64,000 nucleotides of DNA from Thermoanaerobaculia bacterium (GTDB lineage Bacteria > Acidobacteriota > Thermoanaerobaculia > Gp7-AA8), in assembly GCA_038244815.1 (NCBI GenBank), contig JBBRTB010000001.1, positions 40,099 through 104,098 on the forward strand, in the 5' to 3' direction. Position numbers and translations under genes: made by a program. This document shows, in pieces, positions 5,519 to 46,850 of the stretch. The stretch's first letter is position 1, and the number at the start of each line of letters is the position of its first letter. Below the pieces are notes generated by a model, which saw only the letters and a list, made by a program, of their open reading frames with translations, was not told the DNA's origin and did not search any database.

Positions 5519-5535
<17 letters not shown>
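4921..5535 (+). CDS. winged-helix (OmpR/CadC-type trans_reg_C) DNA-binding domain fused to FHA domain; EmbR-like regulator
   Basis: N-terminal trans_reg_C-like region (LTPKAFALLEALV...LYDRLWQG...LHTLVAEIR) plus FHA (IIGREV...RRHARIDVRG...DLHSKNGTCVGG...DGDEIIFG); ATG 4921 chosen because 4831 start would overlap JAB gene. Confidence 0.65.
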
Positions 5536-8128
<2,593 letters not shown>

Positions 8129-8160
8129 GTCACTGGATGATACGCACGGGCCCGCTGATG

Positions 8161-8390
8161 GTTCGCAACGAGGCTGACACAACTCGCGGCTATCGCTTCA
8201 TGCCCTTGCGCGCGCGGATGGAAATGGATGGGACAGCCGACGAGGCCGAGAGCGTCGCGAAACTGATTCTCGAGATAGCGGCGATAAGAGAAGTGAATGG
8301 GCTCGTCGACGTTGGAGAACATGGCGATGGTGGTGGGCTGCGTCTTCAACTGCGTCGCGTAATAGAAACGGCGCGGCCTGCCCTTGACGC
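8161..8390. repeat. diverged copy (~95% identity) of the der 3' end plus 30 bp of its downstream flank
   Basis: 8161-8390 aligns base-for-base with 12253-12486 (authentic der C-terminus ...KTQPTTIAMFSNVDEPIHFSYRRYLENQFRDALGLVGCPIHF); no intact ORF. Confidence 0.7.
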
Positions 8391-8455
8391 TAGAGGGTGG
8401 CCAAAGGCCGGGGGAGGAGAGAGCGGCCCTTTGACGCCGCAGTGGAGAAAAACAA

Positions 8456-8893
8456 TCAGTTCCGGCGCCGGGCCCGTTGCGCTTTCAGCATTGCGAGATT
8501 CGCTTTCCATTGCTCGTACTGGGCGTCCGGCATGGGCGTGGGAATGATCTCGATCGTTTTTCGCCGCCGCGCATGCACGATCGTCAGTGAATTCGGCTTG
8601 CCGACCTTCAGCTCCGCGAGCCCGAGGACAAGATCGAGACCATCGCGAAACTGCAACGGTTTTCCGCTGATCCCTACGATGAGGTCGCCGGCTCGCAACC
8701 CCGCCTTCGCCGCAGGGCTGCCGGGATCGACGTCACGAACGTTCAGCCACGATGTTCGGTCGGCGGCGACTCTGTGAATCGTGAATCCGAATCCGAGATA
8801 CCCCGGTCGAACGGGGGCGGCGTCGTCACCACTCAGCGGGAACACCGCCGCGATCAGCGTGATTGCTCCTATCACTCTCAGAGATCTACTCAT
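8456..8893 (-). CDS. secreted PDZ-domain protein
   Basis: Signal peptide; PDZ core (GYLGFGFT...VDPGSPAAKAGLRAGDLIVGISGKPL). Confidence 0.6.
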   Translation of the reverse strand: MSRSLRVIGAITLIAAVFPLSGDDAAPVRPGYLGFGFTIHRVAADRTSWLNVRDVDPGSPAAKAGLRAGDLIVGISGKPLQFRDGLDLVLGLAELKVGKPNSLTIVHARRRKTIEIIPTPMPDAQYEQWKANLAMLKAQRARRRN

Positions 8894-10811
8894 GTCTTCC
8901 CTCGCGCAATTCAGCCCCCCAGACGATCGTCGCTTCCCCTCCGGCCGGCACCAACTTTGTCACGCAACTGTCTGAAATGCGCGGTTCGGCGCACAACCAG
9001 TACAAACCAGGTTCGATGTCAAACATGAATCCGTCCTCCGCCCGCTCGGCTGGAGGCCCTCCAGACCGTGGAAGAAACAGATCGGGCAATCGAAAGAACG
9101 CCGTGCCGTCACGAGTCATGAAAGGCCACGGTGGCGCGCCCGATGGCATCCTCACGTGCAGTCGTGCGGCCTTCGGAATCAATGTGATCCGCAGACTCTG
9201 CTCCGCCTCGTCGGATGCCGGAACATAGTTGAGCAGCTTTCTTGGCAATCCGGGCGCGATCACCGCGATGGCGACGGGCGACGCCGCCGGAACGGAAATC
9301 AGGAAGTCACCAGTCAGTCCGGTCGCAGTCCGCTGCGCCATTGAAGCCGGCGTGAGATAACGAATCATTGCCCCGGGCACGGCGTTGCCCGCGGCGTCGA
9401 GCAACGTCCCTCGAATGGTAACGGTCGACCGAACCAGCAGGGTGAGGTGTTGTTCCTCATCGTTCGAGACCGACGCACGCACCATGCCGCTGGTTGCAGA
9501 CTTCGCCGTCGCGTTTACTTGTCGGTCGCCCGCAGCGAGGCCCTCGAATCGGAATTCGCCCCTCTCGTTTGTCTGGCCTGATGCCTCCAGCGCCGTGTCG
9601 CGGAAAAGAAGGACTGCCGCGCGAACCGCATGACCTTGTTCATCGACGACGCTTCCGCTCACCGCGCCGCCGGGAAGCTCGATGCGCACCTTGGCACTCT
9701 CTTCATCCGGCCGCCGTTTCACGCTCACGGAAGGAACGTGAAGTTCGACGGGTGGCGCTCCGAATCGCACGACCGCGCGCCAGGTTCCCTCATGCGGCAG
9801 GATTCCGGCGAACTCCCCGTCGCTGTTTGTGCGGAAGGTCAGCCGCGAGCCGTCCTCCCAGATGAGCGCCACACCTCCGGAAATCGCGCGACCACCGACT
9901 GTGGCGCTTCCCTGAAAAGGAATGCTATCGATGCGGATGTTGAACAGGGTGTCCTGCAGCAGATCGACTTCGCTGGAGGTCACACGCGCGCCTTGGGATG
10001 TCAGAACGTCGAGTCTGTACAACCCCACGTTGAGCAGAGTCGTCGTCCACTCGCCGGCCTCCGTTGCCGTGCCGGATCGTACGAGCTCTTGATACGCCGA
10101 CTGTGGCACTGCGCGATTCAACCGCACTCGCCAGGGTTTGCCCCAGTAATCGACTGGCGGACTGATGAAGGCCTGCAATCTGATCAGCGATTTCAGAAAG
10201 ATTGCCTCGATATCAACTTCACGCGGCGCTTCGACGCGGATGCTCGCTTTTGAAACCGAAGAGAAGCCTTCTTTCTGCGCCACGATCGAGTACGTACCGC
10301 TCTCGACGTCGGCGAAGTCATACATCCCTTTGCGGTCGGTCACCGTCTGTCGCGTACGCAGTCGATTACGACGAGCATCCTCTTGTGAGAGTTCAGACGC
10401 GGGAACGAGCTCGACTTGAACGCCTTTCAGGCCGAAACTGTGATCCGAAACCTTGCCCACAACTGACGATCCGCGTGTGAGACGAAGAGTTCCGGCATCG
10501 ACGGTGCCTTGCGGCTGCAGGACGACGTTCCACCGATAAACAGGCGCGTAGCCTGACGCGTACAACTCTGCGTCGAACGTGCCGTCAGGAACACGACAAA
10601 TCCAGGCGCGATGCGCGACCTCGCAATCGCCACTGAACTCTCCGCCGTTATCGCCGCGAGACTGAAGGCGCAGACGCAGCGATTTCGGCGCGGATGTACC
10701 GCGCCCTTCCATCTCGAGTTGGCCGGTCAGGATCGCCGTGTTTTCGGCGGCGGCACCAGCAGCCGTAATCACGCACAACGCGGCGTAGCAACCGACGATG
10801 GATAAACGCAT
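8886..10811 (-). CDS. secreted multi-repeat carboxypeptidase-regulatory-like (CarbopepD_reg) domain protein
   Basis: Signal peptide MRLSIVGCYAALCV; several ~80-aa repeats with G.V.D..G.PV.GA.V......T...G.F.F..L..G pattern. Confidence 0.55.
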   Translation of the reverse strand: MRLSIVGCYAALCVITAAGAAAENTAILTGQLEMEGRGTSAPKSLRLRLQSRGDNGGEFSGDCEVAHRAWICRVPDGTFDAELYASGYAPVYRWNVVLQPQGTVDAGTLRLTRGSSVVGKVSDHSFGLKGVQVELVPASELSQEDARRNRLRTRQTVTDRKGMYDFADVESGTYSIVAQKEGFSSVSKASIRVEAPREVDIEAIFLKSLIRLQAFISPPVDYWGKPWRVRLNRAVPQSAYQELVRSGTATEAGEWTTTLLNVGLYRLDVLTSQGARVTSSEVDLLQDTLFNIRIDSIPFQGSATVGGRAISGGVALIWEDGSRLTFRTNSDGEFAGILPHEGTWRAVVRFGAPPVELHVPSVSVKRRPDEESAKVRIELPGGAVSGSVVDEQGHAVRAAVLLFRDTALEASGQTNERGEFRFEGLAAGDRQVNATAKSATSGMVRASVSNDEEQHLTLLVRSTVTIRGTLLDAAGNAVPGAMIRYLTPASMAQRTATGLTGDFLISVPAASPVAIAVIAPGLPRKLLNYVPASDEAEQSLRITLIPKAARLHVRMPSGAPPWPFMTRDGTAFFRLPDLFLPRSGGPPAERAEDGFMFDIEPGLYWLCAEPRISDSCVTKLVPAGGEATIVWGAELREGRHE

Positions 10812-10828
10812 TGCCCTCGTGGACGAGC

Positions 10829-11059
10829 TCAGGCGTGCAGGCACTGCTCGCCCTGGCAGGTCGGTTCGCAATAGGTTTCGCCGCTGCCGTCACTCCAGCA
10901 CGTGCGGGTGCCGACGCAGTTCGCATATTCGGGATAAGCCAACCCCGATACGCCGGAGAAGCAGTTCGCGTACGGTGCGCTGTCGTCGATGTAGCAATAC
11001 TGACATCCGCCGCCGCCACTACCCCCACCGCTGCCACCTCCGTGATTCCATCCCGCCAT
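10829..11059 (-). CDS. small Cys/Gly-rich peptide (76 aa; 8 Cys, G-S-G linker); possible 5' extension through in-frame TGA to a signal peptide at 11176
   Basis: Protein-like composition in this frame; the overlapping alternative frame is Ala/Arg junk; see finding. Confidence 0.4.
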   Translation of the reverse strand: MAGWNHGGGSGGGSGGGGCQYCYIDDSAPYANCFSGVSGLAYPEYANCVGTRTCWSDGSGETYCEPTCQGEQCLHA

Positions 11060-12049
11060 GCACTGCTCACCTGAAACGGTCGCGTCGCAGAAAACGCCCT
11101 CGTCATCAGACTGGGCGAACAGTCAACCGGGAACCATGAGCAGCACAATAACGAAGAACAATCGCGCAGATTTCATCTTCGCCTCCAACGCCACGACCAA
11201 ATATAGGTTCGAGGTGGAACTCTGTCCAGTAGTGCGAGGCGGAACTCTGTCAAGGAGTTCGAGGATAGGAAAAAGCATTTCGCGTTCGACTCTACGAAGT
11301 GCGAGATTCTGAAGCTTTAGAGTCTTTTCCCATGCGCGCTGACGGTTTTGGATCGATCTTCGCGAGAAGTATCGGTGGTTTCGTCATGGCGGCGGATGGA
11401 GCGAGCCGGGAGAGGTGACGTTCGCGGTGTTTGCGCTCCCGCGTGTGGGTGAGTGAGCAGGCTTCGGCCCGTCTGGTCACCAGCCTGCTGTGCTGGGCGG
11501 CACGCGCTCGCGGTTGACGCGTTGACCAGACGCTTGGAAACAGACACAGGCGGCACGCGCTCGCGGATCTCGATCCCCGTTGCCGACTGCACGATGTCCT
11601 GCACGCCTTCGAGGTGCTGAACGTTGAGCGCCGTCATCACGGACGTGCCGGTGGCGAGAATCTCCTCGACGTCCTGCCTCCGTTTGTCGTTGCGCGAGCC
11701 GGGGCCATTCGTGTGCGGCAGCTCGTCGACGACCACGCGTCGGAATGTCGCGCGAGGATCGCCTCGAGGTCCATTTCTCGATCACGACCTCGCGATAGCT
11801 CACCTCCTGTGCGGAATGACTTCGAGATCGCCGACGCGGGCGAGCGTCTCCGCGCGCCCATGCGACGCAGGCGAATCCGACGACGATATCGACGCCGGCG
11901 CGGCGTGCGCGTCGTCGACGCCATGCGCGCGGTTTTGCCGACGCCCGCGGCCATGCCGGCTGCGCCAGTTCCTCGGCTGTCGGCATGGTGGCGGTGCTGG
12001 ACAACGACCAACACGAAGGACGCCCCGGGGTACGTTCTGCTCGACGCCG

Positions 12050-12249
12050 AATCAGATCCGCACGTGCGAACGGCGAGCGGCCCGTGAGCACCTCGAACAG
12101 AGCGGCGCCGAATGCGAAGATGTCGGCGCGGTGGTCGACAGCTACCCCTCCACCTGCTCCGGCGACATGTACGCGCCCGTTCCCATGGCCTGGGAGGGAG
12201 CGGTGTCCGAACGGTCCGCGCCCTCTCTCGCCTCCACGAGCTTGGCGAT
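12050..12249 (-). pseudogene. Ser/Thr kinase remnant (internal ~200-bp fragment, frameshifted) fused to der 3' flank
   Basis: 12107-12249 about 94% identical to kinase 7497-7640 (encodes VAVDHRADIFAFGA..LTGRSPFAR); C8 homopolymer difference causes frameshift; no ORF. Confidence 0.6.
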
Positions 12250-12282
12250 CACGTTCGCAACGAGGCTGACACAACTCGGTTG

Positions 12283-13635
12283 CTATCGCTTCATGCCCTT
12301 GCGCGCGCGGATCACGAAATGGATGGGACAGCCGACGAGGCCCAGGGCGTCGCGAAATTGATTCTCGAGATAGCGGCGATAGGAGAAGTGAATGGGCTCG
12401 TCGACGTTCGAGAACATGGCGATGGTGGTGGGCTGCGTCTTCAGCTGCGTCGCGTAATAGAAGCGGCGCGGCCTGCCCTTGACGCTGGGCGGCTGATGCG
12501 CGCGCAGGGCGCCCTCCAGGATCTCGTTGAGCTCGGAGGTGCGGAACCGCTTTCGGTAACCGGCCACGATCTCGTCGATGCGCGGAAAGATCTTCTCGAC
12601 GCGACGCCCTGTCTTCGCGGAGATGAACTCGACCGGAGCGTACGGAATGAACTTCAGCATGAAGCGGATCTGGTCCTCGAATCTCTTGGCGTCGTCCTGC
12701 GAGTGCTCGCCGGCATCCCACTTGTTCACCAGCAGCATGGCCGCCCTCCCCTCCTCCTCGGCATATCCGGCCACGGTGGCGTCCTGGGCGGTCACGCCGT
12801 CCACGGCGTCGATCATCACGAGCGCGATCTCGCAACGCTCGATGGCCTTGCGCGCCGAGATGACGGAGAGCTTCTCCGCCTCGCCGGTCGTTTTTCCCTT
12901 ACGACGAATGCCCGCCGTGTCGATGAGGAGGTAGCGCCTGCCGCCGCGCTGGATCTCCGAGTCGATGGCATCGCGCGTGGTGCCGGAGATCGGCGAGACC
13001 ACCGAGCGCTCCTCGTCGGTCAGCCGATTGAGCAGCGACGACTTGCCGACGTTGGGCCGGCCGATGATGGCCACGCGGATCGGCGCGTCCTCCCCCTCGT
13101 CTTCCCCGGCAGCCGAGTCCGCGGGGACGATGTCCGCGATCAGGTCGGTGAGATCGTCGGTGCCCGCGCCATGCTCCGCCGAGATCGGCTGCAGACGTTC
13201 CAGGCCCAGCTCGTAGAACTCGTTGACGGCCGCTTGGGCGTCCTTACGGTCGATCTTGTTGACCACCAGAATGGTCTTCGCGGCATCGCGGCGGAGCTGG
13301 TTGGCGATGTCGCGGTCCTCCGGCAACACACCCGCGGCACCGTCGACGACGAAGAGGATGAGATCGGCATCGCCAAGCGCTCGTGTGGCCTGGGCCTTGA
13401 TCTCGCCGGCGTACGCGGACATCGGCGTGTCGCCGTACTCGAGCCCTCCCGTATCGGTCAGCTCGTAGCGGCGGCCGTCGTCGAGCGACACGACGCCGGT
13501 CAAGCGGTCGCGCGTCATTCCCGGCAGGTCGTGCGTGAGCGCCCGGCGCTGACCGGCCAGACGGTTGAACAACGTCGACTTGCCGACGTTCGGCCTTCCG
13601 ATGATGACGACGCGCTTCAGATTGTGATCGGCCAT
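12283..13635 (-). CDS. der: ribosome-associated GTPase Der (EngA), two GTPase domains plus KH-like domain
   Basis: Tandem G domains (GRPNVGKS twice, DTAG/DTGG, NKxD) and conserved C-terminal KH-like domain. Confidence 0.95.
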   Translation of the reverse strand: MADHNLKRVVIIGRPNVGKSTLFNRLAGQRRALTHDLPGMTRDRLTGVVSLDDGRRYELTDTGGLEYGDTPMSAYAGEIKAQATRALGDADLILFVVDGAAGVLPEDRDIANQLRRDAAKTILVVNKIDRKDAQAAVNEFYELGLERLQPISAEHGAGTDDLTDLIADIVPADSAAGEDEGEDAPIRVAIIGRPNVGKSSLLNRLTDEERSVVSPISGTTRDAIDSEIQRGGRRYLLIDTAGIRRKGKTTGEAEKLSVISARKAIERCEIALVMIDAVDGVTAQDATVAGYAEEEGRAAMLLVNKWDAGEHSQDDAKRFEDQIRFMLKFIPYAPVEFISAKTGRRVEKIFPRIDEIVAGYRKRFRTSELNEILEGALRAHQPPSVKGRPRRFYYATQLKTQPTTIAMFSNVDEPIHFSYRRYLENQFRDALGLVGCPIHFVIRARKGMKR

Positions 13636-14973: not shown

Positions 14974-16383
14974 ATGCCAGACACCAATCCCGTGCCACTC
15001 CTTTCCGTGGTCGTTCCCTGCTACAACGAGCGCGCCACCGTCGCCGAGCTCCTGCGACGGGTGAGAGAAGTTCCGATCGACAAAGAGATCATCGTGGTTG
15101 ACGACGCCTCCACCGACGGCTCGCGCGACGTCGTGGCCGCGCTCGCCGAGCAGTGGCCGGAGATCCGCCACATTCTGCAGGGCCTCAATCAGGGAAAGGG
15201 AGCGGCCATCCGCCGCGGCATCGCCGAAGCGCGCGGGGACATCGTCCTGATCCAGGACGCCGACCTCGAATACGATCCCGTCGACTACCCGAAGCTCGTG
15301 CAACCGATCGTCGACGGCCACGCCGACGTCGTGTTCGGCTCCCGCTTCGAAGGCTATCCCCGCCGGGTCATGCTCTACTGGCACCGCCTCGGCAACACCT
15401 TCCTGACGTTCCTGTCGAACATGACCACGAACCTCGATCTCACCGACATGGAGACCTGCTACAAGGCCTTCCGGCGCGAGGTGATCCAGTCGATTCCGAT
15501 CCGCTCCGACCGCTTCGGGTTCGAGCCGGAGATCACCGCCAAAGTCGCCAAACGCGGCTATCGAATCTTCGAAGTGCCCATCTCCTACTACGGCCGCGAC
15601 TACTGGGAAGGAAAGAAGATCAACTGGAAGGATGGACTCAGCGCCGTCTGGACGATCCTTCGCTACGGCCTGTTCTGGGATTCCTCGAGCGAGCCGCGCA
15701 CGTTCACCACGATCCGGCGGCGCGGGCGTCTCACTCGTTACAACAACTGGATCTGGGACCGGATGAAGCCGTACACCGGCCAGCGTGTGCTGGAAGTCGG
15801 CGCGGGCTCGGGCGCGATGACCCGATTCCTGTACGGCCGCGAGCTGATCGTGGTGACCGACCGGGAGACCGCGTATGTGGACCGGCTGCGCAACGCCTTC
15901 CGCCGCAGTCCCGGAATCACGGTGGAGCGCTTCGATCTCGAATCCGATGAGGCCCTGGCGTTCGCGAAGGATCGCTTCGACACGATCACGCTCATCAACG
16001 TGCTCGAGCACACGGCCGACGATGAAGCGGCCCTCCGGCGCGCGCACCAGATCCTCGTTCCTGGCGGCCGCGTGATCGTGTTCGTGCCGGCCTCGAAAGA
16101 GCTGTACGGATCGCTCGACGAGGGTATCGGACATCAGCGCCGCTACGAGCGGGACGAGCTCGCCGCGAAACTGGCGGTGAGCGGATTCGAGGTCGAGCTG
16201 GCCTCGTATCAGAACCGCATCGCCAAACTGGCCTGGCAATTCAACACGCTCCTCGGTCGCAGGGCGTTGCCGGCGGGCCAGTCGCGTCTGTTCGACGTCC
16301 TCGTACCGCTGCTGCGCGCGCTCGAAGGCGAGAACCCTCCGACCGGGCTGAGCCTCTTCGCGGTGGGAAAGAAGCCCGCATGA
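14974..16383 (+). CDS. GT2-family glycosyltransferase (Dpm1/polyprenol-phosphate mannose synthase-like) fused to class-I SAM-dependent methyltransferase
   Basis: LLSVVVPCYNE...VVDDASTDGS...DADLEYDP GT2 motifs; C-terminal half has VLEVGAGSG methyltransferase motif I; ATG 14974, 25 bp from the divergent membrane-protein start. Confidence 0.8.
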   Translation: MPDTNPVPLLSVVVPCYNERATVAELLRRVREVPIDKEIIVVDDASTDGSRDVVAALAEQWPEIRHILQGLNQGKGAAIRRGIAEARGDIVLIQDADLEYDPVDYPKLVQPIVDGHADVVFGSRFEGYPRRVMLYWHRLGNTFLTFLSNMTTNLDLTDMETCYKAFRREVIQSIPIRSDRFGFEPEITAKVAKRGYRIFEVPISYYGRDYWEGKKINWKDGLSAVWTILRYGLFWDSSSEPRTFTTIRRRGRLTRYNNWIWDRMKPYTGQRVLEVGAGSGAMTRFLYGRELIVVTDRETAYVDRLRNAFRRSPGITVERFDLESDEALAFAKDRFDTITLINVLEHTADDEAALRRAHQILVPGGRVIVFVPASKELYGSLDEGIGHQRRYERDELAAKLAVSGFEVELASYQNRIAKLAWQFNTLLGRRALPAGQSRLFDVLVPLLRALEGENPPTGLSLFAVGKKPA

Positions 16384-17189
16384 AACGCGCGGCGGTCATC
16401 CTCGCCGGCGGAGCGGGCACACGGCTCTATCCGCTCAGCTCCGAGGAGAACCCGAAGCAGTTTCTCAAGCTGTTCGAGGGCCGGTCGCTGCTCGAGAAGA
16501 CGTTCGCGCGGCTGACGCCATTGATCGGTAGCGAGGCGATCTTCGTCTCGACGAACGAGCGGTATGGCCGGAAGTGTCTCGAGCAGCTACCCGAGCTTCC
16601 GGCTTCGAATGTCATCACCGAACCGGCGCGCCGGAACACCGGTCCGGCCATCGCGCTGTGCACGTTCGAGATCGAAAAGCGCCTCGGCCAGTGCTCGCTG
16701 GCCTTTCTCGCATCCGATCACTACATCAGTGATGAAGCGGAGTTCGTCCGCGTGCTCGAGCGCGCCTTCGTGCATGCCGAAGGGCACGACGATCTCGTCA
16801 CCATCGGCATCGAACCGACGGAGCCGAACACGGGATTCGGCTACCTCGAGCTCGGCGAGGAGATCGCGCCCGGCGTGGTCCGGCTGCGCCGCTTCACCGA
16901 GAAGCCGTCGCGCCAGCGCGCCGAGGAGTTTCTGCGCGCCGGAAACTACGCCTGGAACGCCAGCATGTTCGTCTGGCGCACGAGCGTGTTCCGCCGGGAG
17001 CTGGAGCGCGCGGCGCCGGAGATCGCCGGCGTGACGCTCGCCAACTACGACACGATGCCGTCGATCTCGATCGACTATGCCCTGATGGAGAAGGCCTCCC
17101 GCGTGGCCACCGTCCGCGGCGAGTTCGGCTGGTCGGACGTCGGATCGTTCGAAGCGCTGGAGAGAGCGGGCGTCGTCATCCCGCGCTGA
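16380..17189 (+). CDS. mannose-1-phosphate guanylyltransferase-like nucleotidyltransferase (N-terminal domain only)
   Basis: VILAGGAGTRLYPLS..ENPKQF signature; ATGA start/stop overlap with upstream GT2-MT gene. Confidence 0.8.
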   Translation: MKRAAVILAGGAGTRLYPLSSEENPKQFLKLFEGRSLLEKTFARLTPLIGSEAIFVSTNERYGRKCLEQLPELPASNVITEPARRNTGPAIALCTFEIEKRLGQCSLAFLASDHYISDEAEFVRVLERAFVHAEGHDDLVTIGIEPTEPNTGFGYLELGEEIAPGVVRLRRFTEKPSRQRAEEFLRAGNYAWNASMFVWRTSVFRRELERAAPEIAGVTLANYDTMPSISIDYALMEKASRVATVRGEFGWSDVGSFEALERAGVVIPR

Positions 17190-37845: not shown

Positions 37846-38624
37846 TGGCTTACGCGTTCGCCGGAATCCTGATGACCGTCGTCTGGATGGCGATCATCTA
37901 TCTCAATGAGACGCACAATCTCCTGAGCTGCGATCATTTCAAGACCGTCGGACTCAAATTCTTCGGCTATGGCTGGCTGGGACTCTTCCTCATTCTCCTC
38001 GGCGTGCTCGTGGCGAACGCGGCGAGCAACCCGGCCCGGGCCAGCGATCTGGCGCGCACACCGTTCTACGCGCTCTTCTCGCTGCACGCCATTCTGGTGA
38101 TGTTTCTGATCGGCTGGTGGCTGGCCACGAGCCGCCCGCCCCTCCGCGAGTTCCTGAGCATCCAGCGCGAGCGTCCCGGCGAGGCGGTGCTCACGGGGCT
38201 GGCCGTCGGAGTGGGCGGATGGGTATTCACGCTCGTCGTGGCATTCGCCATCGCCATGCTGCTCAACGCCGCCGGTCTGATCGGGAATCCGAAGCCGTCG
38301 CCGGTGATCGGGTTCATGGCCTCGATGCCGATCTGGAAGAAGGCACTGCTGGTTCTGTCGGCGATGACCGTGGAAGAAGCATTCTTCCGGGCCTGGCTGC
38401 AGAAGCGGGTCGGCCTCATCGCCTCCACGACGCTGTTCGCTCTCGCGCATTTCACGCTCGGTCAGCCGCTGCTGCTGATCGGCGTGGCAGTGATCTCGCT
38501 CGTCATCGGTTTCACGTTCTACCGCACGAAGAATGTTGTGCCCGGCGTGATCGCGCACGGCGTGTTTGACGCCGTGCAGCTCTTCGTGATCATCCCGATC
38601 GCCTTTCAGGTGGCAGGCCTCTGA
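37842..38624 (+). CDS. CPBP-family (CAAX protease-like) intramembrane metalloprotease
   Basis: EEAFFR, FALAH and HGVFD motifs on TM helices; ATGA overlap with upstream gene. Confidence 0.75.
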   Translation: MMAYAFAGILMTVVWMAIIYLNETHNLLSCDHFKTVGLKFFGYGWLGLFLILLGVLVANAASNPARASDLARTPFYALFSLHAILVMFLIGWWLATSRPPLREFLSIQRERPGEAVLTGLAVGVGGWVFTLVVAFAIAMLLNAAGLIGNPKPSPVIGFMASMPIWKKALLVLSAMTVEEAFFRAWLQKRVGLIASTTLFALAHFTLGQPLLLIGVAVISLVIGFTFYRTKNVVPGVIAHGVFDAVQLFVIIPIAFQVAGL

Positions 38625-38629
38625 TCGCG

Positions 38630-40909
38630 ATGACCTCACGCGCAGCGGATCGGCGCGATCTCTGGTGCATGGCGCTTCTCGTGGGCATCGCAACAGTCTT
38701 TTTCTCGGACGTGCTCTTCGCCGGTAGCAACTTCTACTACCGCGATCTGTTCATCTACCACTTCCCGATGAAACACATTGTCCGGGAGGCGATGATCAGC
38801 GGCGAATTCCCATTCTGGAACCGCTTTTACTCGAACGGCCAGCCCCTCGCTGCCAATCCTGCGTATGAGCTCTTTTATCCACCGCAGTGGCTGATTCTCA
38901 CCGGCTCGTACACCTTCGGGTTCGCTCTTCACATCCTCTTTCATGTCTACGCTGCCCTCGTCGGAACATTTCTCCTGTTGCGGACGATGACGCTCGGCCG
39001 CGCCGCGGCAACCTTCGGGGCACTCTCGTTCGGCATGGGCGGCTTCCTTCTCGGATCCATGACGATGCTGCCGACATTTTTCGTCTGGGCGCTCGCACCC
39101 CTGGTGGGATGGAGCATCGTTCGGGCGTTGTGCGCACCGGGCCCTTCGACCGTCGCGGTGGCGGCTCTTCTGGCGGGTGTGCAATTGATCATCGCCGAGC
39201 CGATGGCCATCCTGCAGGTGTGGCTGCTGATCGCGGTGTGCGTGCTGGTATTCGCTCGCCGCCAAACGGGCGTCCTGGCCGCGATCGGCGGGGCAGCGAT
39301 GCTCGTGGCCGCCGTTTTGATCGTTCCGGCGATCGACCACGCCCGGGACTCCGCTCGGTCGCGTGGGATCGCCTTCAACGTCGTTCGGCAGTATTCGCTG
39401 CCGCCCTCTCGCCCGCTGGAGATGGCCATTCCACACCTCTACGGTGTTCTCGACCCGTTCGCCGCTGCGTATTGGGGGGCGGCGGCCTTCGATCGTGGCG
39501 CGCCATATCTCTCCAGCCTTTACAACGGCATCGCCGTGGCCATTCTCGTCCTGGCCGGACTGATTCTTCGCGCACGGGGCTCGTTAACCGTCGTGGTGCT
39601 GAGCCTCATCTCTTATCTGCTGGCCATCGGCGATCGCACCCCGTTACTACGGGCCCTGTACGACGCCGGAATCGCGCGGGGCATTCGTTACCCCGAAAAG
39701 TTCGCCGCCCTCGCCGTCGTCACGATGACGTTCTTCGCAGCATCCATCGCTGACCGCCTGCTCTCAGGAGATGAGAAGGCGCGCCGGTCCGCGATCGCGG
39801 CGGGACTGATCATCTTCCTGATCAGCGTCGTGCCTCTGTTCTTTGCGCGATCACTCGGCCAGCCAAGGCTGGAAGCTCTGGCGCGGAGAGAGTGGCTGAT
39901 CGGACTGGCCTTCGCTGCCGCGGCCACGTTACTCCTGGCCGCTCTTCCGCGCGTCCCCCGACGGGCCTGGCTGCTGGTGGCATTCGCGGTGGTGCTGCTC
40001 GACCTCGTCCTCGTCGACAGTGAGCTCGTCACGCGCATGCCCAGGTCATTCTTCACGCCACCAGCCGTCGTGGCCGGCTTCGAGGCCGATCGAAACGACT
40101 ATGAAGTCATGCATCGCGGCGAATGGAACGCGGAGGATCCGAACTATCACGCGCTGCGCGCCGCCTTCGGCCCGTGGTTCTCGCGCAATGGACTGCAGCC
40201 ATTCTCACTCGACGCCTGGGGAGTGCGCAGCGCGCTCGAGCTGGACTTCGACGAGACAGCACTTCTCCCAACTCACGATCTGCTCGATGCGATGATGAAG
40301 GTCGGCAACCGAGGATTTGCGCACTGGGCGGAATCGTTCGCAGCGATCTCGAATGTGCGTTATCTGGTCGACTATCTTCCACTTGCCAATGTGCTCTCGC
40401 AGCATGGGCCGGTCGAGCAGGCCCGAATGGTTCGCCTGACGCATCTCCCTTCGACAGGGCGCTACTACTTTCCGCAGCAGATCGTGCATGCCCTGACCCC
40501 GGACGATGTCGTCGCATTCATCGAGAGAACCGGCATCCAGCGGCCGGTCGCGTTCGTGCCGTTCGTCCCGCCAACACCGGCACGGGCGCAAGTGCTGAAT
40601 GTGAGCGAGCGTGCAAACGGTGCCACGATCGACGTCATATGCGAGGAGAGGGCACTTCTCGTGGCCACGGTCACACGCCACAAGTACTGGCACGCAACGA
40701 TCGATGGAAAGCCGGCGCCGCTGCTTCCGGTGAACATCGCCTATCAGGGATTGATGGTGCCGGCCGGCCGCCACCGAGTGGAGATGCGTTATCGCAACCC
40801 GCTCGTCATCGCGGGGGGGATGGTGACCGTGCTGAGCGTCGCGGCGTGCGCAGCCGTGATCGCTACTGCTCCGACACGACCACGCCATCGCCCTCGAAGC
40901 GGATCTTGA
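38630..40909 (+). CDS. YfhO-like large polytopic membrane protein (putative lipid-linked glycosyltransferase)
   Basis: N-terminal ~12 TM region, large C-terminal extracytoplasmic domain and terminal TM, as in the YfhO family. Confidence 0.5.
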   Translation: MTSRAADRRDLWCMALLVGIATVFFSDVLFAGSNFYYRDLFIYHFPMKHIVREAMISGEFPFWNRFYSNGQPLAANPAYELFYPPQWLILTGSYTFGFALHILFHVYAALVGTFLLLRTMTLGRAAATFGALSFGMGGFLLGSMTMLPTFFVWALAPLVGWSIVRALCAPGPSTVAVAALLAGVQLIIAEPMAILQVWLLIAVCVLVFARRQTGVLAAIGGAAMLVAAVLIVPAIDHARDSARSRGIAFNVVRQYSLPPSRPLEMAIPHLYGVLDPFAAAYWGAAAFDRGAPYLSSLYNGIAVAILVLAGLILRARGSLTVVVLSLISYLLAIGDRTPLLRALYDAGIARGIRYPEKFAALAVVTMTFFAASIADRLLSGDEKARRSAIAAGLIIFLISVVPLFFARSLGQPRLEALARREWLIGLAFAAAATLLLAALPRVPRRAWLLVAFAVVLLDLVLVDSELVTRMPRSFFTPPAVVAGFEADRNDYEVMHRGEWNAEDPNYHALRAAFGPWFSRNGLQPFSLDAWGVRSALELDFDETALLPTHDLLDAMMKVGNRGFAHWAESFAAISNVRYLVDYLPLANVLSQHGPVEQARMVRLTHLPSTGRYYFPQQIVHALTPDDVVAFIERTGIQRPVAFVPFVPPTPARAQVLNVSERANGATIDVICEERALLVATVTRHKYWHATIDGKPAPLLPVNIAYQGLMVPAGRHRVEMRYRNPLVIAGGMVTVLSVAACAAVIATAPTRPRHRPRSGS

Positions 40910-46629: not shown

Positions 46630-46850
46630 AAAAAAACTCGGAGATCCCCGCCTGAGCCGTGTGGAGATTCTCACTCGAACCTGTAAAAGAACAGGTGGGC
46701 GCCCTACTGGGACCGTTTTGGCTACCTTCTATACCCGGTGAAGGGCGAAGGCGTGCTCGCGATCCGCAGACCCGGACACCCGAAGCAAGAATTACGGTTC
46801 AAGCGTTAGATCGTTCATCACGCACTCTGCAGGGATTCTCCGAAAATTCT
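46630..46850 (-). ncRNA. ssrS: candidate 6S RNA (SsrS), co-transcribed downstream of zapA
   Basis: ~220-nt non-coding gap between zapA and rny; 5' CGGAGAAUCCC pairs with 3' GGGGAUCUCCG to close the molecule; ends in U7 run; zapA-ssrS synteny is widespread. Confidence 0.35.

What the first reader, a model, noticed from the sequence alone, without database searches (positions are those of the whole stretch)
10829..11176. Small secreted Cys/Gly-rich peptide gene whose signal peptide is interrupted by an in-frame TGA
In one frame the sequence reads MKSARLFFVIVLLMVPG-TGA-LFAQSDDEGVFCDATVSGEQCMAGWNHGGGSGGGSGGGGCQYCYIDDSAPYANCFSGVSGLAYPEYANCVGTRTCWSDGSGETYCEPTCQGEQCLHA. That is a canonical signal peptide, then a stop, then a 10-Cys glycine-linker peptide in the same frame. 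The next in-frame start codon (the ATG at 11059, MAGWNHGG...) lies after the would-be cleavage site. Either a very recent nonsense mutation (TGG/GGA to TGA), a sequencing error, or regulated readthrough. The peptide sits directly upstream of the large secreted CarbopepD_reg protein. Its composition resembles bacteriocin or RiPP-like Cys-rich peptides.
Basis: seen in the sequence. Interest (0 to 1): 0.5.

Follow-up and report, generated by a model that had tools for sequence, protein, structure and literature searches.

The report
Stop-interrupted small secreted cysteine-rich protein gene
A soil acidobacterium carries a copy of a rare, undescribed gene for a small secreted disulfide-rich protein, and a stop codon inside the export signal has most likely knocked this copy out recently, so the stop itself is ordinary while the gene family and its conserved three-gene cassette are new.

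Summary
Window 11176..10829 (- strand) reads as a signal peptide, then TGA (11125..11123), then a 97-codon, 10-Cys, Gly-linker protein in the same frame.

It is a real gene. A profile search of 1.84 billion proteins found 29 relatives, all from metagenomes, with no Pfam, NCBIfam or PDB match. Every relative examined has an uninterrupted signal peptide, and none starts at MAGW. In 6 of 6 distinct homologue loci long enough to show it (and in the window itself), the gene is first in a cassette of small Cys-rich protein, then a ~630-aa CarboxypepD_reg-repeat protein, then a ~145-aa HtrA-like PDZ protein. All three products look exported.

TGA is the normal stop in this genome. There is no SECIS-like structure, and homologues have Ser, Pro, Val or Ala at that position, never Cys. 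An independent assembly of run SRR19962014 carries the same TGA.

The cassette lies in a ~4.1-kb insertion between der and a Ser/Thr kinase gene. The insertion is flanked by 234-nt, 94% identical direct repeats and also holds a deleted kinase remnant and a frameshifted kdpD remnant.

Best reading: a recent, genuine nonsense allele (young pseudogene). Programmed readthrough and a RiPP or bacteriocin role are not supported. The C-terminal domain folds confidently but has no known structural match.

The parts
11200..11228 (-). Sigma-70-like promoter TGGACA-17-TATATT upstream of the small gene
   Evidence: 10 of 12 matches, the only such site in 8100..12400. Homologue loci have an equivalent TTGAC-N17-TAnAnT before their genes. 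Function is inferred.
11207..11256 (.). Two tandem 25-nt direct repeats (ACAGAGTTCC core) overlapping the promoter
   Evidence: (family D5, 84% identity). The repeat is not found in homologue upstream regions. Meaning unknown.
11182..11186 (-). Shine-Dalgarno GGAGG, 5 nt before ATG 11176
   Evidence: Read directly from the sequence.
11126..11176 (-). Codons 1-17 of the signal peptide (MKSARLFFVIVLLMVPG)
   Evidence: It aligns with the signal peptides of the homologues.
11123..11125 (-). In-frame TGA at codon 18, at position -4 from the predicted AxA|Q signal-peptidase site
   Evidence: The same base triplet is present in the independent Logan contig L001. In the alignment this position is Ser in P0003 and P0006 and Pro or Val in the others. 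The Ser codons are TCC and AGC.
10832..11122 (-). The remaining 97 codons: end of the signal peptide (LFA|Q), a 2-Cys N-terminal module, a Gly/Ser linker and an 8-Cys C-terminal domain. The stop is at 10829..10831.
   Evidence: all family-invariant Cys, Gly and Asn residues are retained. AF2 gives pLDDT 80-95 for the C-terminal domain.
10829..11059 (-). The 76-aa MAGW... ORF, as called in the NCBI and Logan records (P0001). It is an annotation artefact of the interruption.
   Evidence: Its Met aligns with the internal Met (Ile in P0007) of the CM[FA]G motif.
8886..10811 (-). Second cassette gene: a 641-aa exported protein with CarboxypepD_reg repeats, intact
   Evidence: Pfam hit at 6.4e-32. 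Signal peptide seen. Full-length 41-45% identity to the partner genes in L002-L007.
8456..8893 (-). Third cassette gene: a 145-aa protein with an N-terminal signal or anchor and an HtrA/DegS-like PDZ domain, intact. Its start overlaps the stop of the previous gene by 8 nt.
   Evidence: It is conserved in L001-L007.
8161..8391 (-). Direct-repeat copy B: a remnant of the last ~200 nt of der, with a 2-nt deletion, plus the der-kinase junction. It lies just upstream of the intact kinase gene.
12253..12486 (-). Direct-repeat copy A: the 3' end of the intact der gene plus the junction. It is 94.4% identical to copy B over 234 nt.
12059..12249 (-). Remnant of the Ser/Thr kinase gene. It is 90.6% identical to 7639..7448, covers aa 182-245, lacks aa 8-181 and contains a frame change.
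11548..11957 (-). Remnant of a kdpD N-terminal domain, split over two reading frames and truncated
   Evidence: Pfam PF02702 profile positions 10-83 in one frame (E 0.04) and 86-148 in another (E 3.5e-22). Three-frame translation.

Best explanation
The locus is a member of a rare, undescribed family of small Sec-exported, disulfide-rich proteins from soil bacteria. The host here is a Thermoanaerobaculia-class acidobacterium.

The protein has four parts: a signal peptide, a 2-Cys module, a Gly/Ser linker and an 8-Cys C-terminal domain. The C-terminal domain carries the motif CQYCY..APYANCFS..NCxGTRxCW.DGSG..CEPxCxGxxC followed by exactly 3 residues. The gene is the promoter-proximal gene of a conserved three-gene cassette. 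The other two genes encode an exported CarboxypepD_reg-repeat protein and an exported or anchored PDZ protein.

In this genome, codon 18, inside the signal peptide, is TGA. Under the standard code that this genome uses, translation ends after a 17-residue hydrophobic peptide. The copy is therefore a nonsense allele, that is, a young pseudogene. At most, trace amounts of full-length precursor would arise from ordinary near-cognate UGA misreading. The mutation is recent, because the downstream 97 codons keep every family-invariant residue and the two partner genes are intact.

What is shown:
- the stop and its position
- the family and its uninterrupted relatives
- the cassette
- the standard genetic code
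- the absence of a recoding signal
- the location in a ~4.1-kb repeat-flanked insertion that also holds two decayed gene remnants

What is inferred, for the normal function of intact copies:
- Sec export and cleavage after AxA.
- Five disulfides.
- The N-terminal module pairs with the CarboxypepD_reg protein.
- The invariantly placed hydrophobic C-terminus (aromatic or variable residue, then A/V/I/T-COOH) is bound by the co-encoded PDZ protein, as HtrA/DegS-type PDZ domains bind C-termini.
For: - Sequence and stop.
- Family: 7 hits in 5.8 billion clusters and 29 hits in 1.84 billion representatives. All relatives have intact signal peptides. The one apparent exception, P0011, is a gene-call artefact.
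- Cassette: conserved in L001-L007, and partially in L008/L009, with different flanking genes.
- Standard code: TGA ends 21 of 33 confident ORFs.
- No recoding signal: the downstream fold has z = -1.16, and there is no Rfam hit at E <= 10.
- Not assembler-specific: the Logan contig equals window 8319..12179 with 0 mismatches.
- Decay context: direct repeats plus kinase and kdpD remnants. The relative L011 has der directly followed by the kinase gene, with no cassette. GC3 is 0.67-0.70 in the cassette against mostly 0.80-0.90 in the confidently coding ORFs of the window.
- Module-partner correlation: small proteins that share only the N-terminal module sit upstream of distant CarboxypepD_reg homologues, have no PDZ gene and have polar C-termini. 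All 25 CQYCY-type members end 3 residues after the last Cys with A/V/I/T.
- PDZ type: HtrA/DegS-like.
Against: - Nothing downstream of the stop is degraded. The promoter, the SD and both partner genes are intact. That is also what continued use of the gene would look like.
- The read-level allele frequency is unknown, and the Logan contig probably derives from the same reads as the MAG.
- No close orthologue exists (best full-length identity about 47-51%), so the ancestral codon and dN/dS cannot be determined.
- The functional model, with PDZ binding the C-terminus and the N-module binding the large protein, rests on co-occurrence in few loci (6 distinct homologue loci plus the window with a PDZ gene, against 2 distinct without) and has no experimental support.
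Confidence: 0.78

Rival explanations
1. The TGA is not the state of the functional population. It is a consensus or sequencing error, or one allele of a polymorphic site, and most cells carry a sense codon such as TCA or TGG.
For: The source is a metagenome-derived contig. All four proteins tested are singletons seen in one sample. The rest of the gene and the operon are perfectly preserved.
Against: An independent assembly (Logan, SRR19962014) gives the identical 3861 nt, including the TGA. A substitution that creates a stop is not a typical assembly artefact. Neighbouring gene remnants show real decay in this segment.
Confidence: 0.12
2. The TGA is decoded by programmed recoding, either as selenocysteine or by regulated readthrough, so that the full precursor is made.
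For: UGA is the stop codon most prone to near-cognate reading, and UGA followed by C is reported as a weak terminator. This rests on my own knowledge of Poole et al. 1995, which is listed as a reference in PMC9841425. That paper itself calls UGA_C a weaker terminator in a eukaryotic system. The ORF after the stop is intact.
Against: No relative has a stop or a Cys at this position. The residue lies in a cleaved signal peptide, where selenocysteine would have no role. There is no SECIS-like or otherwise significant structure (z = -1.16) and no Rfam match. TGA-C is a normal gene end in 5 of 21 TGA-terminated ORFs here. No tRNA-Sec is found in the window.
Confidence: 0.04
3. The annotated 76-aa protein that starts at ATG 11059 (MAGW...) is the real, functional, non-secreted product.
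For: Gene callers chose it. An AGGTGA lies 7 nt upstream of that ATG.
Against: This Met aligns with the internal Met (Ile in P0007) of the CM[FA]G motif. All relatives extend upstream with two more Cys and a signal peptide. By general knowledge, an 8-Cys disulfide domain without an export signal would sit in the reducing cytoplasm. The promoter and the strong SD precede ATG 11176, not 11059.
Confidence: 0.03
4. The organism uses a genetic code in which TGA is a sense codon (table 4 or 25).
For: None beyond the single in-frame TGA.
Against: 21 of 33 high-confidence ORFs, including aconitase, the kinase, DUF92, the glycosyltransferase and DnaE, end at TGA. The genome is 65% GC and belongs to Acidobacteriota.
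Confidence: 0.005

Closest known systems
The unnamed metagenomic protein family P0002-P0020, P0027-P0030 and P0032 ('hypothetical protein' in JGI)
   Same: Same architecture and motifs. Full-length members found by the first search are about 47-51% identical; identity over the aligned part ranges from 28 to 62%. Same position as first gene of the cassette of small protein, CarboxypepD_reg protein and PDZ protein.
   Different: The window copy is the only one with a stop codon inside the signal peptide.
PDZ recognition of protein C-termini by HtrA-family proteins, such as DegS sensing the YxF-COOH ends of outer-membrane proteins in E. coli (established knowledge)
   Same: The co-encoded PDZ protein scores best against HtrA, DegP and DegS PDZ domains. 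The small protein has an invariantly positioned hydrophobic C-terminus. PDZ gene presence tracks that C-terminal domain type.
   Different: The PDZ protein here has no protease domain. Binding is untested. This is a 'works like' proposal, not a membership claim.
Sec-dependent bacteriocins and RiPP precursors
   Same: Small, Cys-rich, Gly-rich and exported.
   Different: There is no leader-core organisation with a double-glycine site and no adjacent modification, immunity, C39 or ABC genes in 8 loci. The product is about 94 aa with a folded 8-Cys domain. The YcaO/ThiF genes 3.4 kb from one variant locus (L031) are not conserved elsewhere.
Bacterial selenoprotein genes (in-frame UGA plus SECIS)
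   Same: An in-frame UGA in an otherwise conserved ORF.
   Different: No SECIS, no Cys-containing homologues at that site, and a position within a cleaved signal peptide.
Ordinary nonsense pseudogenes in recently acquired DNA
   Same: A single premature stop relative to all homologues. The gene lies in a repeat-flanked insertion next to two decayed gene remnants, with atypical GC3.
   Different: Apart from the one codon, the gene and its operon show no further decay.

Membership tests
CQYCY-type small secreted Cys-rich protein family (undescribed, defined here by alignment A3) | 8-Cys C-terminal domain with CxxC...NC...C-x5-C-x9-C-x3-C-x4-C spacing and invariant Gly and Asn residues | tested here: met
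   Invariant columns C40, C43, C69, C75, C85, C89, G91 and C94, and near-invariant N53, C54 and G71, are all present in the window sequence. Profile E-value for the 76-aa part is 2.8e-31.
CQYCY-type small secreted Cys-rich protein family | The protein ends exactly 3 residues after the last Cys, with A/V/I/T as the last residue | tested here: met
   The window ends ...C-L-H-A. All 25 aligned members obey the rule.
CQYCY-type small secreted Cys-rich protein family | Uninterrupted N-terminal Sec-type signal peptide ending in AxA|Q | tested here: not met
   The signal peptide is present and homologous, but it is broken by TGA at codon 18. Relatives are uninterrupted. The copy is therefore a disrupted member.
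CQYCY-type small secreted Cys-rich protein family | First gene of the cassette, followed by a CarboxypepD_reg-repeat protein and then a PDZ protein | tested here: met
   Window genes at 10811..8886 and 8893..8456. The same order is seen in L002-L007.
Selenoprotein gene | A SECIS stem-loop immediately downstream of the UGA | tested here: not met
   The 71-nt fold is not better than shuffles (z = -1.16; 25 of 200 shuffles do as well). No Rfam family matches at E <= 10.
Selenoprotein gene | Homologues carry Cys, or Sec, at the aligned position | tested here: not met
   Aligned residues are Ser, Pro and Val in the close homologues (A1) and also include Ala in the wider alignment (A3). None is Cys.
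Selenoprotein gene | selA, selB, selD and tRNA-Sec in the genome | not testable with these tools
   Only 64 kb of the genome is available. No tRNA-Sec is found in the window.
RiPP or bacteriocin precursor | Adjacent modification, processing or export genes (YcaO, LanM, radical SAM, C39-ABC, immunity) | tested here: not met
   None is present in the window neighbourhood or in L002-L009. The only conserved neighbours are the CarboxypepD_reg and PDZ proteins.
RiPP or bacteriocin precursor | A non-Sec leader peptide, such as a double-glycine leader | tested here: not met
   All members have a classical n-h-c signal peptide with AxA|Q, judged by inspection. No SignalP-type tool was available.
TGA-reassigned genetic code (tables 4 and 25) | TGA absent as a gene terminator and frequent in-frame | tested here: not met
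   TGA terminates 21 of 33 confident ORFs.
Nonsense pseudogene | A premature stop relative to all full-length homologues, with no recoding signal | tested here: met
Nonsense pseudogene | Further degeneration, or relaxed selection, downstream of the stop | tested here: not met
   All invariant residues are retained. If it is a pseudogene, it is a very young one. dN/dS is not computable without close orthologues.
Nonsense pseudogene | The stop is fixed in the population, shown by read support | not testable with these tools
   Only assemblies are available. Two assemblies agree.

The most novel reading that the evidence does not exclude
The most novel reading not excluded concerns intact members of this family. 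They would be the ligand or cargo subunit of a previously undescribed three-component extracytoplasmic module of soil Acidobacteriota. The 8-Cys domain would have a fold with no solved counterpart. Its fixed hydrophobic C-terminus would be captured by the co-encoded stand-alone PDZ protein. The 2-Cys N-terminal module would dock onto the CarboxypepD_reg-repeat protein. That N-terminal module is also combined with other Cys-rich 'payload' domains in related two-gene cassettes. On this reading the window copy is a natural knock-out of the ligand gene.

A still more novel variant, that the UGA is deliberately read through, has a probability of only about 0.04.
Probability: 0.3. Interest if true: 0.5.

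Novelty: new member of a known kind. Interest (0 to 1): 0.3.

Why it matters
The interrupting stop is an ordinary event, and it shows that the database entry (a 76-aa 'MAGW' protein) is a mis-annotated fragment.

The by-product is more useful. The work defines a small, rare family of exported disulfide-rich proteins: 29 clusters among 1.84 billion representatives, with no Pfam, NCBIfam or PDB relative and no structural match in the PDB or BFVD searches that could be run. It also defines a strictly conserved cassette with a beta-sandwich repeat protein and a stand-alone PDZ protein. That gives a concrete, testable hypothesis for a PDZ-ligand pair in poorly studied soil Acidobacteriota.

The repeat-flanked insertion between der and the kinase gene also documents how such a cassette arrives in a genome and starts to decay.

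Tried and rejected
- Reassigned code: rejected by stop-codon usage.
- Selenocysteine or a structured readthrough signal: no significant fold and no Rfam hit.
- Weak UGA-C context as evidence for leakiness: weakened, because TGA-C ends 5 of 21 TGA-terminated ORFs here. The primary paper PMC398062 is not held.
- The alternative frame ORF 10648..11148 (-): it has non-coding-like codon-position GC (0.61/0.66/0.59) and was not investigated further.
- Lipoprotein idea (TGA derived from TGC, giving a ...VPG-C lipobox): no homologue has Cys there.
- First AF2 run with 7 sequences: unusable, pLDDT 38.
- Pfam on all 25 members gave only sub-threshold noise; the best repeated hit was Notch LNR at E 0.034 in 4 members.
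- The GTDB species-representative scan with A2 found no relative.
- The JGI metagenome scan added only one locus, L028.
- The last two context look-ups (P0015, P0023) hit contigs too short to show a third gene.
- Literature searches found nothing on this cassette or family.
- A three-way comparison of the two repeat copies with L011 gave mixed derived changes (3 against 5). It does not distinguish in-situ duplication from import from a related strain.

Full report
**1. The observation**

The next in-frame canonical start is the ATG at 11059. The sequence after the predicted AxA|Q cleavage site holds 10 Cys and a GGGSGGGSGGGG linker.

A GGAGG lies 5 nt before ATG 11176. The only sigma-70-like site in 8100..12400 (TGGACA-17-TATATT, 10 of 12 matches) lies at 11228..11200 on the same strand.

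**2. It is a real gene family, and the part before the stop belongs to it**

- A search of 5.8 billion protein clusters with the read-through sequence returned the 76-aa MAGW ORF itself (P0001, present in NCBI and Logan, from a 288-kb contig) and six relatives of 99-122 aa.
- A profile search of 1.84 billion representatives found only 29 proteins at E <= 1e-3.
- All of these are metagenomic, unnamed or 'hypothetical', and lack Pfam domains.
- Every relative has an uninterrupted N-terminal signal peptide ending in A-x-A|Q, as does L028. The exceptions are gene-call or contig-edge artefacts.
- The one short call, P0011, has an in-frame upstream ATG that encodes an intact signal peptide.
- tblastn aligns window residues 1-115, across the stop, to L005, L008 and L009.
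- The Met of 'MAGW' aligns with the internal Met (Ile in P0007) of the CM[FA]G motif.

**3. Anatomy of the family (alignment A3)**

- A signal peptide.
- An N-terminal module with two Cys, typically PDPCxGTMDIDTCMF.
- A Gly/Ser linker.
- A C-terminal domain with eight Cys: CQYCY..APY[AG]NC[FY]S..NCxGTRxCW.DGSG..CEPxCxGxxC.
- The chain always ends exactly three residues after the last Cys, with A/V/I/T as the final residue.

The window copy keeps all invariant positions.

There is no match in Pfam, in NCBIfam or to PDB sequences.

**4. Context: a conserved three-gene cassette**

In the window the small gene is followed by two genes:
- a 641-aa CarboxypepD_reg-repeat protein with a signal peptide (10811..8886);
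- a 145-aa protein with an N-terminal signal or anchor and an HtrA/DegS-like PDZ domain (8893..8456), overlapping the previous gene by 8 nt.

The same order, small protein then a ~620-640-aa CarboxypepD_reg protein then a ~145-153-aa PDZ protein, is found in every homologue contig long enough to show it: L002/L003, L004, L005, L006 and L007. L008 and L009 break off inside the second gene. The second and third genes are 41-50% identical to those of the window.

The flanking genes differ between loci, so the cassette is a self-contained unit. Homologues also share a promoter-like TTGAC-N17-TAnAnT and an SD in front of the small gene.

Small proteins that share only the N-terminal module and carry a different Cys-rich C-terminal part (P0021, P0033) also sit directly upstream of distant homologues of the large protein (25-27% identity, 728-733 aa). 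Those loci have no PDZ gene, and their C-termini are polar.

From this I infer that the N-terminal module goes with the large protein, and that the CQYCY domain with its fixed hydrophobic C-terminus goes with the PDZ protein. The sample is small: 6 distinct homologue loci plus the window, against 2 distinct loci. This is inference only.

**5. What the TGA is**

- The genome uses the standard code. Among ORFs of at least 150 codons with strong coding-type GC3, 21 of 33 end in TGA. These include aconitase, the kinase, DUF92, the glycosyltransferase and DnaE.
- TGA-C, the context found here, is a normal terminator in 5 of those 21.
- The RNA downstream of the stop folds no better than shuffled controls (z = -1.16).
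- No Rfam family matches 10700..11500 even at E <= 10.
- The residues aligned to the stop are Ser (P0003, P0006, P0008) and Pro, Val or Ala in the others, never Cys. The site lies in a signal peptide that is cut off after export. Selenocysteine is therefore not supported.
- The Ser codons in homologues are AGC and TCC. The ancestral codon in the window lineage cannot be determined. TCA (Ser) and TGG (Trp) are both one step away.
- The Logan assembly of run SRR19962014 is identical to window 8319..12179 over 3861 nt, TGA included. The stop is therefore not specific to one assembler. Allele frequency in the reads could not be checked.

**6. The cassette lies in an insertion that shows other decay**

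The host is a Thermoanaerobaculia-class acidobacterium: Der is 73-83% identical to that of MAGs with this name. In the relative L011, whose Der is 82% identical, the PD40 Ser/Thr kinase gene follows der directly. None of the der-flanks of the relatives contains the cassette.

In the window, der (13635..12283) and the kinase gene (8182..5519) are separated by about 4.1 kb. The separating segment is bounded by a 234-nt direct repeat of 94.4% identity: 12486..12253 is the der 3' end plus junction, and 8391..8161 is a der 3' remnant, with a 2-nt deletion, plus junction.

The segment also contains:
- a 191-nt kinase remnant, 90.6% identical to 7639..7448, covering aa 182-245, lacking aa 8-181 and changing frame;
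- a kdpD N-terminal domain remnant split over two frames, with PF02702 positions 10-83 and 86-148.

GC3 of the cassette genes is 0.67-0.70, against mostly 0.80-0.90 in the confidently coding ORFs of the window. It resembles that of the cassette in other loci.

The layout is what a single-crossover integration of DNA carrying a der-kinase junction would give. It is also what an old local duplication with insertion would give. The three-way comparison does not decide between them. Either way, the TGA sits in acquired, partly decayed DNA.

**7. Conclusion and mechanism**

The most likely explanation (about 0.75 to 0.8) is a genuine, recent nonsense mutation in the first gene of the cassette. The ribosome stops after 17 residues, and no exported Cys-rich protein is made beyond trace near-cognate readthrough. 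The two downstream genes have their own ribosome-binding sites, remain intact and may still be expressed.

The 76-aa protein in the databases is an annotation artefact.

Rivals:
- a population polymorphism or consensus error (about 0.12);
- programmed recoding (about 0.04);
- a functional 76-aa product (about 0.03);
- a reassigned code (refuted).

The bacteriocin or RiPP reading is not supported. The proteins have Sec signal peptides rather than leaders, the product is a folded ~94-aa protein, and no modification or export genes are conserved nearby.

**8. Novelty**

The stop is ordinary. The family, its apparently unmatched fold and the conserved pairing with a CarboxypepD_reg protein and a stand-alone PDZ protein are undescribed in Pfam, NCBIfam, PDB and the searchable literature. 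They give a testable ligand-PDZ hypothesis.

Noticed in passing
window 8161-8391 and 12253-12486: A 234-nt direct repeat of 94% identity (der 3' end plus der-kinase junction) brackets a ~4.1-kb segment. That segment is absent between der and the kinase gene in the related MAG contig L011. The layout looks like a single-crossover integration or an old duplication with insertion.
   Followed up: partly
window 12059-12249 (-): A remnant of the neighbouring Ser/Thr kinase gene. It is 90.6% identical to 7448-7639, with an internal deletion of aa 8-181 and a frame change.
   Followed up: yes
window 11548-11957 (-): A kdpD N-terminal (P-loop) domain remnant split across two reading frames and truncated. 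It is a frameshifted pseudogene fragment just upstream of the cassette.
   Followed up: yes
window 11207-11256: Two tandem 25-nt direct repeats with an ACAGAGTTCC core overlap the promoter-like site of the small gene. They are not present upstream of the homologues. They could be a regulator binding site or a local duplication.
   Followed up: partly
L030 287-2841; L031 5001-7553: The N-terminal 'PDPCQGTM(D/N)IDTCM(F/W)' module is also fused to unrelated Cys-rich C-terminal parts (P0021-23, P0026, P0031, P0033). In the two such loci examined (P0021 in L030; P0033 in L031-L033), the small gene sits upstream of longer, distant CarboxypepD_reg homologues and there is no PDZ gene. This suggests a modular 'address plus variable payload' design.
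   Followed up: partly
L031 8524-10363: A 50-aa ORF followed by ThiF-like and YcaO genes lies about 3.2 kb downstream of one cassette variant. It could be a separate RiPP cluster. It is not conserved in other loci.
   Followed up: no
L030 3730-5640: A PD40 Ser/Thr kinase gene also lies near a cassette variant in an unrelated farmland contig, as it does in the window. Whether the kinase association is more than coincidence is unknown.
   Followed up: no
window 16795-16888 (-): ARAGORN calls a 94-nt tRNA-Leu(gag) here, but Rfam does not. The call lies antisense inside a full-length NTP_transferase gene (16380-17189 +). It is probably a false positive.
   Followed up: yes
window 46641-46838 (-): A 6S (SsrS) RNA gene, 76 bits against Rfam RF00013.
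   Followed up: no
window 38001-40000: A strongly negative AT skew (-0.27). It coincides with a 779-aa YfhO-like membrane protein ORF (38570-40909 +).
   Followed up: partly
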